Shown piece after piece: positions 9,116 to 45,247 of a stretch of DNA of 64,000 nt; the stretch's first letter is position 1, and each line of letters starts with the position of its first letter. The notes under the pieces are model-generated. The model was not told the origin of the DNA, did no database searches, and worked only from the letters and a program-made list of their open reading frames with translations. A program made the translations under genes and the position numbers. The DNA is from the human T2T-CHM13v2.0 reference genome, Homo sapiens: the NCBI RefSeq assembly GCF_009914755.1, contig NC_060936.1; one strand, written 5' to 3'.

Positions 9116-9751
9116 GATGCTCTAGATGCTTCTAGATTTGTTTTTCAACTGCCTGTCTCTTGAGATCAGGGGCTGTACATTATTTATTATTTTTTTCTTT
9201 AGTACAGGGCCTTGTACATGCTATGCACTTAACACATATTGTTGAATGAATATTGTCTGCCCTTAATGATTCCTCATTTCAAGTAAGATGAAAGCAAACT
9301 TCCTTGACAATCTGACTCCAACATTGTATTTCAAACTTCTATCCAAAAGGAGGTTGGACCATATCTCCTGGGCTATGTTTTGCTCAAAGAGGCCTCTATA
9401 CTCCTCCTTCCCAGTCCAGGCTGCAGAGACCATGGAGCCCAGGGTACAGGAGGGAGAGGTGAGTGAAAGTGTGTGTGGATGAGACATGCTGTTTTGTGAA
9501 GAGTTGTTCATCTCTTGATGTTTAAGACCATAGCTTAGAGAACTTTCATTCTCTAAAGCTCTCTAGATTTTTAAGAAATTACTGAAGCATTTCCCTTACT
9601 AAATCCACTCATTTGCTACATGCAACTTGGACTTTCTGGAAACTTCTGAAGATTCACAGAGTCCATAAATGTCCTTGTCCTCCCTTTGGCTTAAATTAGT
9701 TCATCTATGTTTTGGTCACTTTCAGCAAGATGAGTTACAAGAACCCAGTCA

Positions 9752-10210
<459 letters not shown>

Positions 10211-12281
10211 TCAGTGCTCTTTCTTCTTATGCCATGCTCGGCCATGAGGAGAAATCCTGAAGTTCTGCACATTCTTTGAAAAAACACAGTGATGGAAGTG
10301 AGACAGATTGTGGGCACAGGGCCATAGTCCTGTTGAATCTGCACTTGTTCCACAAGGTTTGAGTTGTTCCCTCAGACTTTCAGAAAATCATTGTTGTGCT
10401 AATGTTTCTTCTTGCTTTCTTTTAAGGAAAAGTGTTTGAGAAGAGTACAGCACAGCCACCACCATTTTTTCCTAGGTCAACAAGCATGCCTGTGTTCTGA
10501 TAATTAAGAGTCCTAATGATACACATCTAATGGTAAAAAGTTCAGGGTTACTGACTTTAGTCATGGCTGGATCCAGGTGTTTAACATGATTTTATCAGGA
10601 AGTTGCTTCTCTCTCTGCCTCTGCCTTCCTTGGCATTGAATTCATTTTTAGGATGTGTGGGGGTTTACTGTTGAGGTGGTCACTGGCAGCTCTAGGTTTA
10701 TGTTCTCACAAATGAATGACTCTTTCTTGATCACACCAGCAGTACTTCTAGGATTATCTCTTATTGGACCAATTTATGTCCCATTTCTACTGCTGAGCCA
10801 TTTCATCAGTTCATTGTTAAACCATTCAGACAAAATACATTGACTGCTTTCCATGTTCCAGCAGCCACACACTTTTTATGAGGAGCCTTCAAATATTAAA
10901 ATAAAGGAATACTAGCAGTATTTTTTAGGAATAATGTGTTTTTCAAGTTCAATGCTATATTACATTAAGCACTGTGAAGCCAGGCTGTGGGAACAATAAA
11001 GCTTTTTTTGATGAACCTCAAAATTGCAAATTGAGGTGGTGAATGACAGTCATCTCCTTTTCTCTGAGGAACCCAAATGTCAGAATGCACCCATGTCTGA
11101 GGTCATCCTTCCTTTGAAATACCTGCCACGATGACTGCAGCTCCTGCAGGTTTCCCTCCCCAGGTGAGTCTGGGCATCCCTGTGGGAATCCTTGCCCATT
11201 CCACACACCCATCTAGTTGCTGCCTGCCTCTGCTGGCTCCAGGACTGCTGCTGTCTTCTTTCCATGTGCTGCTGCTTGCCCCTGGTTGACTTTCAGCTGA
11301 CACAGGAAAGCTCTTTTTGAAGCTGCTGCCATTCCTTCCTGTATAGAATCCAGGACTGTCCTGTTTCCTATAGTAATGGCAAAGATTGGGCTGAGTCTTT
11401 TGACAGGGTTCTACTGGATATTTTGGGAGAGAACTACAAGGATGAGAGAAACCTACACTTACTACCAGATAGAATTGGGCTCAGAGGTTCCTTTCCTGGG
11501 GCTCTCTGAAGGGTTCTCTCTTACTCTTGTCCATCTCATCTGCTCCAACAGAAGTGTCCTCTAGTGTGTCTGTGTCTCTATGTCCAGGTTCCAGTGAGCG
11601 CAGGGCTCAGAGACATGAAGGAGTAAGTCATGCCTCACTCATCCCGGGCTAAGGCTTTAATTTCCTATCTCAGCACCTACTTCGTCCCAGCATAGTTAAA
11701 AATACGAATATTCATTCCCTTCAGGGAAGACCTGCTTCTTGTCGCTACACAGAACTTTACTCTTTAGCCTTCAGTAGATCAAGGTCACTAATACGTAAGT
11801 CACAAGGTCACTAATACATAATATATAAGTCCATATAGCAATCCATTTCCCAAAATGTGTGTTTTTCAGTCTTAAATAACAGCACAGTGGTATAGCAGCA
11901 ACAGGTCCATGCTGAGATGCACCAAACGCAGTCCTGCTTCTCTTCCTTGTCTCGTCCTCTGTGAGGGGAACAGATGGGGACCTTTAACATTTCCTTCCAA
12001 GCACCTGTCTATTTGATTTCTGATCCTCCTGCAAACTATCTTTTGAAATGGAACATACCCAACTCTGAAAGAATAAAAAAATGTTTAGCTATGGTAGTCG
12101 ATGAAATCCTCACAGAAAAGAAACTTTTTTACCCCCAAAGGCAATAGTGTTCACAGAGACATAGCTTTAGGAGGCTCTGAGCATAACCAAACAGGTATTG
12201 AGCTTGTTTGTCTAAATTAGATGTATTTAATCTATCGGATTCCTGACTTTCTCCAGATGTTCTTGCTTTACTTTTGCATAT

Positions 12282-12344
12282 TGTACTAGTTAGTGTTCTC
12301 CAGAGAAACAGAATCAATAGATTTACTTACTGATTGATTTTATT
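12282..12344 (-). mobile_element. MLT2 (ERVL) LTR, left part, split by L1 insertion
   Basis: tgtactagttagtgttctccagagaaacagaatcaatag is the MLT2 terminus; continues at 19591. Confidence 0.8.
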
Positions 12345-12705
12345 TTATTTTTTTCTTGAATAAAGCATGGTATAGTCATTAGTTACAACCCTTAGAACAG
12401 TCATTAGGCCAGTCATGCCATAAGACAAGCCCTCAACTCCATCTGTGGCAAGGGGATTTGTTTGCCTGGACTTTTGGAAAATACTAGGATTCTAATTACA
12501 CCCCAAATTCAAATTGTGTGGGTGTTGCTTTCTTTTCCTGAATCAGATAATACAAGCTGATATAAAGCAGATAATAAAAACGTCATACTTCAAAGGCCTT
12601 GTGAACCAACATCCTTTCACAATTTTTAGATGAGATTTTGAATGTATAAACTTTCCCTGCAAACATGTTCTAGGGATGACTCAGTTTCTTTTAAAATCTG
12701 TGTAA

Positions 12706-13004
12706 GGCTGGGCGTGGCAGCTCAAGCCTGTAAATCCCAGTACTTTGAGAGGCCAAGGAGGAAGGATGGCTTGAGGCCAGGAATTCGAGACCAACCTGGA
12801 CACCATAGTGAGACCCCCGTCTCTACAAAATTTTTTAAAAATTTGCCAGATGTAGTGCTCTGTGCCTGTAGTTCTAGTTGCTTGAGAGGCGGAGGCGAGA
12901 GGATTGCTGGAGCCCCAGAGTTCAAGGTTTCAGTGAGCTGTAATTGTGCTACTGCACTCCAGCTTAGGCAACAAAGCCAGACCTCATCTCTTAAAGAAAA
13001 AAAA
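12706..13004 (+). mobile_element. AluJ within transduced segment
   Basis: Diverged dimer, ggatggcttgaggccaggaattcgagacc (J-type), A tail. Confidence 0.85.
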
Positions 13005-13237
13005 CTTCATAAACAGCTCAATGTTAGTGAATTTTCACTGACTATATTAGAAGACACTGAAAATAATTCTGCCAAGAAATTCTCTGCAGAAACTTAGACA
13101 ATTTCTGAACCACCTTTAAATCCTCCTATTGACGGAGGCTTGGAGGGCATTGTGTTAGAGGGGCACGTGCCACTGGTTGGCTACTCTGAGGCAGACTCTG
13201 CACCCAGCAGTGAATATTTGTGTGGTTTTCTCCACAG

Positions 13238-13357
13238 GTCCCGTGGGAAGATCTCCGTTATCTCTTTGATGAGATCATGTATGGAGGCCACATCACAGAT
13301 GACAGGGATTGCAAACTGTGTCGGGTGTATTTAGAAGAATTCATGAATCCATCTCTG
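13238..13357 (+). pseudogene. DNAH11: Orphan single-exon copy of axonemal dynein heavy chain (DNAH11-like), 120 nt
   Basis: ttttctccacag|GTC...CTG|gtaag; translates [40 protein letters not shown] versus recalled DNAH11 [40 protein letters not shown] (37/40); no neighbouring dynein exons seen in window. Confidence 0.85.
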
Positions 13358-13660
13358 GTAAGACATTTGTAAATTAATTAACTTGTAATTTCACTGAGGA
13401 AAAAATTCTGGTAAGAATTTTATAAACTAATTATACTATGGGTAATTCTTTTTTTTATTCTTATACTTTAAGTTTTAGGGTACATGTGCACAACTTGCAG
13501 GTTTGTTACATAAGTATACATGTGCCATGTTCGTGTGCTGCACCCATTAACTCGTCATTTAACATTAGGTATATCTCCTAATGCTATCCCTCCCCCCTCC
13601 CCCCACCCCACAACAGGCCTGGGTGATGTTCTCCTTCCTGTGTCCATGTGTTTTCATTGT

Positions 13661-17486
<3,826 letters not shown>

Positions 17487-17549
17487 TATGATGTTAGCTG
17501 GTTATTTTGCTCGTTAGTTGATGCAGTTTCTTCCTAGCCTCGATGGTCT

Positions 17550-18566
17550 TTACAATTTGGCATGTTTTTGCAGTGGCTGGTACCAGTTGTTCCTTTCTAT
17601 GTTTAGCACTTCCTTCAGGAGCTCTTTTAGGGCAGGCCTGGTGGTGACAAAATCTCTCAGCATTTGCTTGTCTGTAAAGTATTATATTTCTCCTTCACTT
17701 ATGAAGCTTAGTTTGGCTGGATATGAAGTTCTGGGTTGAAAATTCTTTGCTTTAACAGTGTTGAATATTGGCCCCCACTGTCTTCTGGCTTGTAGAGTTT
17801 CTGCCAAGAGATCATCTGTTAGTCTGATGAGCTTCCCTTTGTGGGTAACCCAACCTTTCTCTCTGGCTTCCCTTAACAGTTTTTCCTTCATTTCAACTTT
17901 GGTAAATCTGACAATTATGTGTCTTAGAGTTGCTCTTCTTGAGGAGTATCTTTGTGGTGTTCTCTGTATTTCCTGAATCTGAACGTTGGCCTGCCTTGCT
18001 AGATTGGGGAAGTTCTCCTGGATAATATCCTGCAGAGTGTTTTCCAGCTTGGTTCCATTCTCCCCGTCACTTTCAGGTACACCAGTCAGATGTAGATTTG
18101 GTCTTTTCACATAGTCCCATATTTCTTGGAGGCTTTGTTCATTTCTTTTTATTCTTTTTTCTCCAAACTTCTCTTCTCGTTTCATTTCATTTATTTGATC
18201 TTCCATCACTGATACCCTTTCTTCTAGTTGGTCGAATTGGCTGCTGAGGCTTGTGCATTCTTCACGTAGTTCTCGTGCCTTGGTTTTCAGCTCCATCAGG
18301 TCCTTTGAGGACTTCTCTGCATTGGTTATTCTAGTTATCCATTCGTCTCATCTTTTTTCAAGGTTTTTAACTTCTTTGCCATGGGTTCGAACTTCCTCCT
18401 TTAGCTCGGAGTAGTTTGATCATCTGAAGCTTTCTTCTCTCAACTCGTCAAAGTCATTCTCCGTCCAGCTTTGTTCTGTTGCTGGTGAGGAGCTGCGTTC
18501 CTTTGGAGGAGGAGAGGTGCTCTGATTTTGAGAATTTTCAGTTTTTCTGCTATGTTTTTTCCCCAT
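17550..18566 (-). pseudogene. L1 ORF1, disrupted
   Basis: ATGGGGAAAAAACATAGCAG start; premature TGA near 18420; ORF 17682..18296 is ORF1p-like. Confidence 0.92.
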
Positions 18567-19141
18567 CTTTGTGGTTTTATCTACCTTTGGTCTTTGATGA
18601 TGGTGACGTACAGATGGGTTTTTGGTGTGGATGTCCTTTCTGTTTGTTAGTTTTCCTTCTAACAGTCAGGATCCTCAGCTGCAGGTCTGTTGGGGTTTGC
18701 TGGAGGTCCACTCCAGACCCTGTTTGCCTGGGTATCAGCAGCAGAGGCTGCAGAACAGCAGATATTGGTGAACAGCAGATGTTGCTGCCTGATCGTTTCT
18801 CTGGAGGTTTTGTCTCAGAGGAGTACCCGGCCATGTGAGGTGTCAGTCTGCCCCTACTAGGGGGTGCCTCCCAGTTAGGCTACTCCGGGGTCAGGGACCC
18901 ACTTGAGGAGGCAGTCTGTCCATTCTTAGATCTCCAGCTGCATGCTTGGAGAACCACTACTGTCTTCCAAGCTGTCAGACAGGGACATTTAAGTCTGCAG
19001 AGGTTTCTGCTGCCTTTTGTTTGGCTATGACCTGTCCCCAGAGGTGAAGTCTACAGAGGCAGGCAGGCCTCCTTGAGCTGCGGTGGGCTCCACCCAGTTT
19101 GGGCTTCCCAGCCACTTTGTTTACCTACTCAAGCCTCGGCA

Positions 19142-19324
19142 ATGGCGGGCGCCCCTCCCCCAGCCTCACTGCCGCCTTGCAGTTTGATCGCAGACTGCTG
19201 TGCTAGCAATGAGCGAGGCTCCGTGGGCACAGGACGCTCTGAGGCAGGTGCAGGATACAATCTCCTGGTGTGCCATTTGCTAAGACCATCAGAAAAGCAC
19301 AGTGTTAGGGTGGGAGTGGCCTGA
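19142..19324 (+). other. L1 antisense ORF0, truncated to 60 aa
   Basis: MAGAPPPASLPPCSLIADCCASN... matches primate ORF0 N-terminus; ends early at TGA. Confidence 0.75.
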
Positions 19325-19590
19325 TTTTCCAGGTGACGTCTGTCACTCCTTTCCTTGGCTAGGAAAGGGAATTCCCTGACCCCTTGTGCTTCCTGGGTGA
19401 GGCGATGCCTTGCCCTGCTTTGGCTCACACTTGGTGCACTGCATCCACTGTCCTGCACCCACTGTCTGACAATCTCCAGTGAGATGAACCCGGTACCTCA
19501 GTTGGAAATGCAGAAATCTTTCATCTTCTGCGTCGCTCATGCTGGGAGCTGTAGACTGGAGCTGTTCCTATTCGGCCATCTTGGCTCCAC

Positions 19591-20127
19591 CTGATTGATT
19601 TTATTAATTATGGGAATTGGTTCACATGGTTATGAAGGCTGAGAAGTTCCACCGTATGATATTTGCAAGCTGGAGATCCAGGAAAACTAGTGGGGTAATT
19701 CAATCCAAGTTTGAAGGCCTGAGAACTTAGAGGGTAGGAGGGTGTGTTGATATAAGTCCTGGACTCTGAAGGCCAAAGAGCTTGGTGTGAGAAAGCAGGA
19801 GAAGATAGATGTCCCTGTTAAAGGAGAGAGAGAATTTGCTCATCCCTGATCTCTTTGTCCTATTCAGGCCTTCTACAGATTGGATGATGCCCGGCCACAC
19901 TGGGGAGGGCAGATCTGCTTTACCAATCCAAATATGAACTGGATATTCTGCCAATCCAAATATGCCAATCCAAATACGAACCTCTTCCTGAAACACCGTC
20001 ACAGGCACATAGAAATAACGCTTAACTAATAATGTTAAAATTTAGTATTAAATAATAATGTTTAAAATAATGTTTATAGGGGCACCTCATGACCCAGTCA
20101 GGTTGACACATAAAATTAACTTTTACA
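19591..20127 (-). mobile_element. MLT2 LTR, right part
   Basis: ggaattggttcacatggttatgaaggctgagaagttcc...ccagtcaggttgacacataaaattaac. Confidence 0.85.
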
Positions 20128-44924: not shown

Positions 44925-45247
44925 TCTTGGTTCGCTCTCCCTTTGGAGAAGCTAGCTGCCCTGTCAGGAACACATGCATGTGGTGAAAAACCGAGACTTC
45001 CAGCCAACAGCCATGTGAGCGAGCCATCTTGGAAGTGGATCCTCCAGCCCCAGTCAAGCCTTCAGATGACTGCAGCTTTGGCCAACATCTTGACTGCAAC
45101 TTCCTGAGAGACCCTGAGCAAGAATCACACCATGAAGATGTTCCTAGTTTTCTGATTCTCAGAAACTGGGTGAGATAATACATGTTTGCTGGTTTAAGCC
45201 ACTAAGTTTTGGGATAATTTGTTATGCAGCAATAGATAACTAATACA

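What the first reader, a model, noticed from the sequence alone, without database searches (positions are those of the whole stretch)
13238..13357. Orphan dynein heavy-chain (DNAH11-like) exon with both splice sites, carried by the L1 transduction
Seen: a 120-nt, stop-free, phase 0-0 exon with a pyrimidine tract/CAG acceptor and a GTAAG donor, encoding [40 protein letters not shown]. The ORF track misses it because it has no start codon in this frame at the required length. Established (from recall): the [11 protein letters not shown] motif is conserved in axonemal dyneins, and [20 protein letters not shown] fits DNAH11 better than DNAH9 or DNAH17. Three changes hit conserved residues (G>D, W>R, R>C), suggesting neutral decay. 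Inference: a snapshot of L1-mediated exon shuffling; introns were kept because the exon was copied antisense. It remains a frame-preserving cassette available to any plus-strand transcript.
Basis: partly seen in the sequence, partly recalled or inferred. Interest (0 to 1): 0.9.

Follow-up and report, generated by a model that had tools for sequence, protein, structure and literature searches.

The report
Dynein exon copied by L1 element
A 1.1-kb piece of the ciliary dynein gene DNAH11, holding one complete exon with its splice sites, was carried from chromosome 7 to chromosome 12 on the tail of a jumping L1 element and is now annotated as an exon of a non-coding RNA; this is a clean natural example of a known mechanism.

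Summary

The parent is on chr7 at 22,020,583-22,020,702. Exon and flanking introns match at 96-97%, and orthologues of the parent exon are named DNAH11. DNAH17 and DNAH9 match only within the exon, at 86% and 82%.

The copied block is window 12352-13450 (39 mismatches in 1098 aligned bases). It abuts the 3' end of a full-length, dead, minus-strand L1 at 13451-19591 and ends in a short A-tail. The whole composite is flanked by an exact 14-bp target-site duplication (12331-12344 and 19592-19605).

The best reading is an L1 3' transduction that carried the exon antisense. The main weakness is that chr7 has no L1 at the junction today, although that junction is an endonuclease-type site (TCTT/AA).

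G>D, W>R and R>C are copy-specific changes at invariant residues. The copy's Met is probably ancestral. This is a new member of a known kind, of moderate interest.

The parts
12331..12344 (.). Target-site duplication, left copy (TGATTGATTTTATT). In L1 sense it follows the terminal A-tail.
   Evidence: exactly 2 matches in the 64-kb window, at 12331-12344 and 19592-19605. Expected 0.09 by chance; 0 of 100 shuffles reach 2. A preceding C (12330 and 19591) is also shared and may belong to the duplication or to the L1.
12345..12354 (-). Terminal A-tail of the retrotransposed RNA, seen as TTATTTTTTT on the + strand. It is 7-10 nt long, and the last 3 T are also present in chr7.
   Evidence: chr12 has this run where the chr7 homology stops; chr7 reads ...GTGATTTCTTGAAT.
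12352..13450 (-). Block copied from a DNAH11 intron-exon-intron stretch (chr7:22,019,693-22,020,796), carried 3' of the L1 and therefore transcribed on the minus strand. The DNAH11 sense is +.
   Evidence: 1098 aligned positions, 39 mismatches (3.55%, K2P 3.65%), 4 gap events; only chr12 and chr7 hold it in the whole genome.
12706..13004 (+). Alu inside the copied block. It is present at the same place in the chr7 intron, so it is older than the copying event.
   Evidence: One search counted 16 mismatches in 299 for the slightly different slice 12700-12998.
13238..13357 (+). DNAH11-derived exon of 120 nt (40 codons, phase 0-0, AAA_lid_11 fragment). It is listed as an exon of the predicted lncRNA LOC105369958 in the table supplied with the finding.
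   Evidence: The 66 intron bases before the exon and the 22 after it are identical to the parent.
13451..19591 (-). Full-length (about 6.14 kb) L1 with broken reading frames. Its AATAAA signal is at 13454-13459, read on the minus strand.
   Evidence: One search shows the 3' end; 26 of 39 non-self genome hits to the 5' end begin at query 100-101, which is window 19591/19592; the longest minus-strand ORFs are 284, 219, 204 and 203 aa; the best other copies are 94-95% identical over the 3' 600 nt (40 scored of 5651 candidates).
19592..19605 (.). Target-site duplication, right copy. It is followed by AATTATGG, so the inferred nick on the + strand is TATT/AA.

Best explanation
This is a fixed L1 3' transduction. 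An L1 once sat, antisense to DNAH11, in the intron 94 nt downstream of this exon on chr7. Its transcript ran past the L1's own poly(A) signal. It then crossed 93 nt of intron, the exon (antisense, so not spliced), about 890 nt of upstream intron including an Alu, and ended there.

The L1 machinery inserted the whole RNA by target-primed reverse transcription at a TATT/AA site on chr12, creating a 14-15 bp target-site duplication. Since then the copy has drifted neutrally. Its splice sites are unchanged from the working DNAH11 exon, and the exon is now annotated as part of a spliced lncRNA.

Shown here:
- the parent locus and the extent of the copy;
- L1 adjacency and orientation;
- the A-tail, the target-site duplication and the endonuclease-type sites;
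- the copy-specific substitutions and phase 0-0.

Inferred:
- that a source L1 existed at chr7 and was later lost or never fixed;
- the read-through transcription;
- an age of roughly 10-20 million years;
- real use of the exon in RNA.
For: 1. Parent. Window 13000-13440 matches chr7:22,020,345-22,020,786 at 96% over all 441 nt, whereas the chr17 paralogues match only inside the exon at 86% and 82%. Window 12353-12700 matches only chr7, at 97%.

2. Boundaries. Homology runs from 12352/12355 to 13450. On the left it stops at a T-run, which is an A-tail on the minus strand. On the right it stops where the L1 3' end begins.

3. One event. The exact 14-bp duplication lies at 12331-12344 and 19592-19605, outside both the block and the L1. 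It has 2 matches in the window and 0 of 100 shuffles reach 2.

4. The L1 is full length (26 of 39 hits start at its first base) and dead.

5. Endonuclease-type sites occur at both places: chr12 TATT/AA, and the chr7 junction TCTT/AA. YYYY/RR occurs at 2.1% of positions and TT/AA at 0.5-0.7%.

6. These features match the hallmarks listed in the review PMC4859970 (passages read): read-through of the L1 signal, target-site duplication, an endonuclease site, and the source's flank carried as the transduced sequence.

7. Neutral drift. The exon has 5 differences in 120 bases, against 39 in 1098 for the whole block. G, W and R are invariant in 10 of 10 DNAH11-type rows but changed in the copy.
Against: - No L1 lies at chr7:22,020,796/7 in this assembly. 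The site looks empty, so the defining source element is missing.
- The A-run between L1 and block is only 8 A. Three belong to AATAAA and two may be chr7's own, so the source's tail would have been 3-5 nt. The review expects two clear homopolymer stretches.
- No AATAAA or ATTAAA lies on the minus strand within about 70 nt upstream of the terminal tail (read).
- The terminal tail is only 7-10 nt, so internal priming on the A-rich AAGAAA is possible.
- Use of the exon in RNA rests on a predicted model in the supplied table, not on any call of mine.
Confidence: 0.83

Rival explanations
1. Template switching, or 'trans mobilisation'. L1 reverse transcriptase began on a separate polyadenylated antisense RNA from the DNAH11 intron. 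At that RNA's 5' end it jumped to the 3' end of an L1 RNA, making the same L1-plus-block product without any L1 ever sitting in DNAH11.
For: - The chr7 site has no L1.
- The A-run at the L1/block junction is very short.
- A precedent of this kind is attributed to Ejima and Yang 2003 for CFTR exon 9. [quoted passage not shown] The details of that case are recalled.
Against: - The block's L1-proximal end falls on an endonuclease-type site in chr7, TCTT/AA. Such a site is expected at about 2% of positions for YYYY/RR. A source L1 insertion explains it; an arbitrary RNA 5' end does not.
- The L1 3' end is complete up to and including its AATAAA. A jump would have had to land at the very start of the L1's tail.
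Confidence: 0.1
2. Two separate events. An L1 inserted at chr12 first. Later, a retrocopy of an antisense DNAH11 intronic RNA landed inside the L1's A-tail.
For: A-runs lie on both sides of the block. They could be read as an A-rich target-site duplication within an older tail.
Against: - It needs an independent unspliced antisense transcript and a hit on a target of a few dozen bases.
- The only clear duplication brackets the whole composite.
- There is no separate duplication around the block beyond the A-runs.
Confidence: 0.04
3. A DNA-level duplication, or filler DNA captured at a break, unrelated to reverse transcription.
For: Introns and an Alu are retained, as in a genomic copy.
Against: - The block ends in an A-tail absent from chr7, exactly abuts an L1 3' end, and shares the L1's target-site duplication.
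- Intron retention is expected anyway for an antisense transcript.
Confidence: 0.02

Closest known systems
L1 3' transduction and exon shuffling by L1 (Moran et al. 1999; Goodier et al. 2000; Pickeral et al. 2000). I saw these as described in passages of the reviews PMC4859970 and PMC2836002; the primary papers were not read.
   Same: The layout is L1, then unique flank from another locus, then an A-tail, all inside one target-site duplication at an endonuclease-type site. The cargo is an exon.
   Different: - The source L1 is absent from the parent locus.
- The internal A-run is very short.
- No canonical downstream poly(A) hexamer is present.
- The exon travelled antisense with its introns. 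The cell-culture design, as I recall it, had a sense-oriented spliced reporter exon.
CFTR exon 9 copies spread with L1 (Rozmahel et al. 1997; Ejima and Yang 2003). I saw these only as reference-list entries; the content is recalled.
   Same: A single exon with flanking intron from a large gene is copied elsewhere in the primate genome in association with L1, and the donor locus lacks an L1.
   Different: - There is a single copy here, not many.
- The L1 is full length and a clean target-site duplication is present.
- The mechanism proposed there was trans mobilisation. Here the endonuclease-type site at the chr7 junction favours classical read-through.
DNAH11 itself, the outer-arm beta-type axonemal dynein heavy chain of the DNAH9/DNAH11/DNAH17 group
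   Same: The copy is 115 of 120 bases and 36 of 40 residues identical to the human parent exon. It has the same splice sites and the same phase.
   Different: It is one exon out of a very large gene, on another chromosome. Three invariant residues are changed (G>D, W>R, R>C), so it cannot encode a dynein.

Membership tests
L1 3' transduction | An L1 with its own 3' end and poly(A) signal lies immediately 5' of the non-L1 cargo. | tested here: met
   On the minus strand the L1 ends ...GAATAAAAAAAA and the chr7-derived sequence follows directly. The L1 is full length.
L1 3' transduction | The cargo is unique sequence that matches one other locus, the source flank. | tested here: met
   only chr7:22,019,693-22,020,796 matches, at 96-97%.
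L1 3' transduction | A second A-tail lies at the end of the cargo. | tested here: met
   7-10 nt of A-rich tail absent from chr7. It is short.
L1 3' transduction | The target-site duplication brackets L1 plus cargo, at an endonuclease-type site. | tested here: met
   exact 14 bp, 0 of 100 shuffles reach 2 matches. TATT/AA.
L1 3' transduction | A source L1 is present at the parent locus next to the cargo. | tested here: not met
   there is no L1 at the chr7 site in this assembly, only an endonuclease-type sequence (TCTT/AA). A lost or never-fixed source would explain this, but it is not shown.
L1 3' transduction | A downstream poly(A) signal was used in place of the L1's own. | tested here: inconclusive
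   No AATAAA or ATTAAA lies on the minus strand in roughly the last 70 nt of the cargo. A non-canonical signal or internal priming is possible.
Dynein heavy chain, DNAH11 exon | The protein fragment matches the dynein AAA lid domain. | tested here: met
   PF18198, E 1.6e-12, above the cut-off; dynein heavy chains only at the top of the list.
Dynein heavy chain, DNAH11 exon | It is closest to DNAH11 rather than DNAH9 or DNAH17, with the introns matching as well. | tested here: met
   chr7 at 96% over exon and introns, against 86% and 82% within the exon only on chr17; among the 120 best rows listed (1581 proteins at E<=0.001), 12 mammalian rows are named 'dynein (axonemal) heavy chain 11', none is named DNAH9 or DNAH17, and a human cDNA protein is 100% identical. 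That the chr7 position is the DNAH11 gene is also my recollection of the gene's map position.
Functional protein-coding exon | Residues conserved in the family are kept. | tested here: not met
   G11, W23 and R25 are invariant in 10 of 10 rows but are D, R and C in the copy.

The most novel reading that the evidence does not exclude
The transduced exon may not be only a fossil. It keeps the native DNAH11 splice sites and is annotated in a spliced transcript. In the six annotated exons that lie in the window, the longest ORF has 102 codons. It starts at the ATG at 11131, reads the exon in the original dynein frame, and stops at 45105-45107. If that ORF is translated, this would be a natural, ape-specific case of L1-mediated exon shuffling giving a chimeric peptide that contains a dynein lid fragment.
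Probability: 0.04. Interest if true: 0.7.

Novelty: new member of a known kind. Interest (0 to 1): 0.4.

Why it matters
Exon shuffling by L1 read-through was shown in cultured cells, but well-resolved germline examples with an identifiable exon remain few. My basis for that is the reviews read, plus recollection.

This locus shows every step except the source element: the parent exon with its introns, the full-length carrier L1, the tail and the target-site duplication. According to the supplied annotation, the exon was later recruited through its original splice sites into a new transcript.

The copy also acts as a dated snapshot of DNAH11. It keeps a Met where human DNAH11 now has Val.

There is a practical point too. 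A 96%-identical copy of a DNAH11 exon on chr12 could attract or donate misaligned reads in ciliary dyskinesia testing, and its differences would look like missense variants.

Tried and rejected
- Sister insertions carrying the same tag. None was found: one search gave 4 places (self, chr7 and two paralogue exons) and one search gave 2 places (self, chr7).
- An L1 at the chr7 site. There is none. The only L1-like match within 40 kb is a 67% match 4.7 kb away.
- Other lncRNA exons (9350-9458 and 11069-11163) as further DNAH11 pieces. They have no chr7 homology.
- The idea that the copy's Met arose by CpG decay of the parent's GTG. I rejected it after seeing Met in 5 of 10 DNAH11-type rows and Val only in the human one.
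- Literature. LOC105369958 gave 0 papers. 'DNAH11 pseudogene', DNAH11P1 and DNAH11P gave 0 papers. DNAH11 with LINE-1 and transduction gave 2 papers; by title and abstract (cancer gene-expression and proteomic studies) neither concerns L1 transduction of DNAH11, and their text was not opened. 'Transduced exon' and similar phrases gave 1 unrelated plant paper. PMC9311842 does not mention DNAH11.
- Pickeral 2000 and Xing 2006 are not held, so their lists were not checked.
- No RepeatMasker-type subfamily call was possible, and I built no L1 consensus.

Full report
**Observation.** Window 13238-13357 is preceded by a pyrimidine-rich tract ending in CAG and followed by GTAAGA. The peptide matches Pfam AAA_lid_11, the dynein heavy-chain AAA lid, at E 1.6e-12 (48.3 bits, cut-off 31). 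Among solved structures, the top sequences are DNAH17 (E 1.3e-13) and DNAH9 (E 1.8e-13), followed by outer-arm beta and gamma chains of protists. There were 72 matches at E<=10, of which 60 were shown, and no chain named DNAH11 is among those 60.

**Parent locus.** The window's own genome is held, and the window is chr12:105,462,001-105,526,000.
- A 441-nt query around the exon (13000-13440) found four places.
  - Itself.
  - chr7:22,020,345-22,020,786, at 96% over the whole query including both introns.
  - Two chr17 places that match only inside the exon, at 86% and 82%.
- The solved DNAH17 and DNAH9 proteins differ from the copy in the way the chr17 hits predict.
- The translated chr7 exon was searched against the large protein collection. 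It gave 1581 proteins at E<=0.001 among 1585 candidates, of which 120 were listed.
  - A human cDNA-derived protein is 100% identical.
  - Twelve mammalian rows are named dynein (axonemal) heavy chain 11, at 90-98% identity.
- So the parent is the DNAH11 member of the group. That the chr7 position is the DNAH11 gene also agrees with my recollection of its map position.

**Extent of the copy.** BLAST of window 1-30000 against chr7:22,000,001-22,040,000 gives one non-repeat homology, window 12352-13459. A global alignment refines it to 12352/12355-13450, equal to chr7:22,019,693-22,020,796. Across 1098 aligned positions there are 39 mismatches (3.55%, K2P 3.65%; 25 transitions, 14 transversions, 8 in CpG context) and 4 gap events.

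| Slice | Mismatches |
|---|---|
| Left unique part | 7 of 347 |
| Alu (slice 12700-12998) | 16 of 299 |
| Upstream intron | 3 of 239 |
| Exon | 5 of 120 |
| Downstream intron | 8 of 93 |

- Most of the downstream-intron differences come from one small rearranged cluster.
- The Alu, at about 12706-13004, is present in both loci, so it predates the copy.
- The left unique part has only two places in the genome, chr12 and chr7.

**The carrier L1.**
- Immediately right of 13450, the + strand reads the reverse complement of an L1 3' end. On the minus strand this is ...AAGTATAAGAATAAAAAAAAGAATTACCC.
- The L1 runs to 19591.
- A 300-nt query across its 5' end found 39 other L1 copies. Twenty-six of them begin to match at query 100-101, which is window 19591/19592. 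This is therefore the family's normal full-length start.
- The element is about 6.14 kb long and its frames are broken into pieces of at most 284 aa.
- Its 3' 600 nt is 94-95% identical to the best 39 other copies (40 scored of 5651 candidates).

**One insertion event.** TGATTGATTTTATT occurs exactly twice in the window, at 12331-12344 and 19592-19605. These positions lie just outside the A-tail of the block and just outside the L1 5' end. The expected count is 0.09, and 0 of 100 shuffles reach 2.
- Between the left copy and the start of chr7 homology lies TTATTTTTTT (12345-12354). On the minus strand this is a 7-10 nt A-rich tail that chr7 lacks.
- The inferred empty site reads ...TGATTGATTTTATT/AATTATGG. 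That is TATT/AA on the nicked strand, an L1 endonuclease-type site.
- The review PMC4859970 gives the consensus as TTTT/AA, generalised to YYYY/RR (passages read).

**The chr7 end.** Homology stops in chr7 at ...GGGCAATTCTT/AATGTTATTG. This is TCTT/AA, again an endonuclease-type site in the orientation needed for a minus-strand L1.
- YYYY/RR occurs at 2.1% of positions, and TT/AA at 0.67% in the chr7 40 kb and 0.51% in the window.
- Even allowing 2-3 positions of junction ambiguity, this is unlikely by chance. It is what a former L1 insertion at that spot predicts.
- However, chr7 carries no L1 there now.
- The A-run between L1 and block is 8 A. Three are the end of AATAAA and two may be chr7's own.
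- I also find no AATAAA or ATTAAA on the minus strand in roughly the last 70 nt of the block.
- These three points keep a template-switch origin, and less plausibly a nested second insertion, alive.

**The exon compared with its parent.** The parent exon is chr7:22,020,583-22,020,702 and encodes [40 protein letters not shown].
- The copy has five base differences.

| Window position | Effect |
|---|---|
| 13243 | synonymous |
| 13269 | G>D |
| 13304 | W>R |
| 13310 | R>C |
| 13343 | Val in the parent, Met in the copy |

- I pulled 14 named DNAH11-type rows. Ten contained the exact motif I used to locate the region. Four rodent rows did not and were dropped from the comparison.
- In all 10 rows G, W and R are kept, so those three changes belong to the copy.
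- At the last position the rows have Met in 5 of 10, Leu in 2, Ile in 2, and Val only in the human row. The copy's Met is therefore most simply the state of DNAH11 at the time of copying, and the parent changed later.
- An exon divergence equal to the intron divergence, with radical changes at invariant residues, fits neutral drift. The numbers are too small for a formal dN/dS.

**Phase and splice sites.**
- tblastn of the human cDNA-derived protein on chr7 places residues 177-244 at chr7:22,016,981-22,017,184, residues 243-284 across the exon, and residues 284-331 at chr7:22,028,737-22,028,880.
- The one-residue overlaps are read-through into the AG and GT signals. Both junctions therefore fall between codons, which is phase 0-0.
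- The 66 intron bases before the exon and the 22 after it are identical in copy and parent. The splice signals are those of a working exon.

**Present use.** The gene table supplied with the finding lists 13238-13357 as an exon of the predicted lncRNA LOC105369958. I checked only that all six in-window exons have AG before them and that the five internal ones have GT after them.
- In the spliced in-window exons the longest ORF is 102 codons.
  - It starts with MTAAPAGFPPQ from the ATG at 11131.
  - It continues through the 40 dynein codons in their original frame.
  - It then reads 51 codons of the next exon, to the stop at 45105-45107.
- The first exon lies outside the window and was not examined.
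- An ORF of this size is not unusual in a transcript of about 1 kb, and NCBI models the transcript as non-coding.

**Age (inference, with rates recalled).** A paralogue divergence of 3.55%, or about 2.9% without the Alu (23 of 799, from the slices), lies near the human-orangutan level and well below the human-macaque level. I therefore place the event roughly 10-20 million years ago. I expect the composite in great apes and not in Old World monkeys. The 5-6% distance of the L1 from its nearest relatives is compatible with this. No subfamily call was possible.

**Comparison with what is known.** The mechanism is established.
- Read-through of the weak L1 signal, carriage of the 3' flank and the potential to move exons are described in PMC4859970.
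- PMC2836002 states that such events occur in about 15% of human L1 inserts. [quoted passage not shown]
- I saw that paper and Rozmahel 1997 only as reference entries.
- I found nothing in print on this locus. There were 0 papers for LOC105369958 and 0 for DNAH11 pseudogene names. DNAH11 with LINE-1 and transduction gave only 2 papers which, by title and abstract, do not concern this locus. PMC9311842 does not mention DNAH11.
- Older catalogues (Pickeral 2000, Xing 2006) are not held and may list it. Supplements were not consulted.

**Verdict.** It is a tidy, apparently undescribed member of a known kind: an exon moved by L1 and then picked up by a new transcript. I give 0.83 to classical 3' transduction, 0.10 to template switching, and the rest to the other rivals. 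Interest is moderate.

Noticed in passing
window 11131-11163, 13238-13357 and 44952-45107: In the annotated lncRNA splice pattern, a 102-codon ORF starts at the ATG at 11131. It reads the dynein exon in its original frame and stops in the next exon. It is the longest ORF in the six in-window exons.
   Followed up: partly
L007:583-702 (chr7:22,020,583-22,020,702), codon 36 of the exon: Human DNAH11 has Val where the chr12 copy and 5 of 10 DNAH11-type rows have Met; the others have Leu or Ile. The copy seems to preserve the older state, and the parent changed afterwards, creating a CpG.
   Followed up: partly
window 13379-13388 against chr7:22,020,724-22,020,733: A small rearranged cluster in the intron just downstream of the exon (TAATTAACTTGT in the copy, TAATTTGTAAATA in chr7). 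It accounts for most of the raised divergence of that slice and looks like one indel or short duplication event.
   Followed up: no
window 19232-19345: The supplied repeat mask has a gap here, but the stretch lies inside the L1 5' untranslated region as bounded by the target-site duplication and by the genome hits to 19392-19591. The L1 is continuous, not two repeats.
   Followed up: partly
window 13238-13357: A 96%-identical copy of a DNAH11 coding exon on another chromosome could cause misplaced short reads in DNAH11 testing. Its four residue differences would read as missense variants.
   Followed up: no
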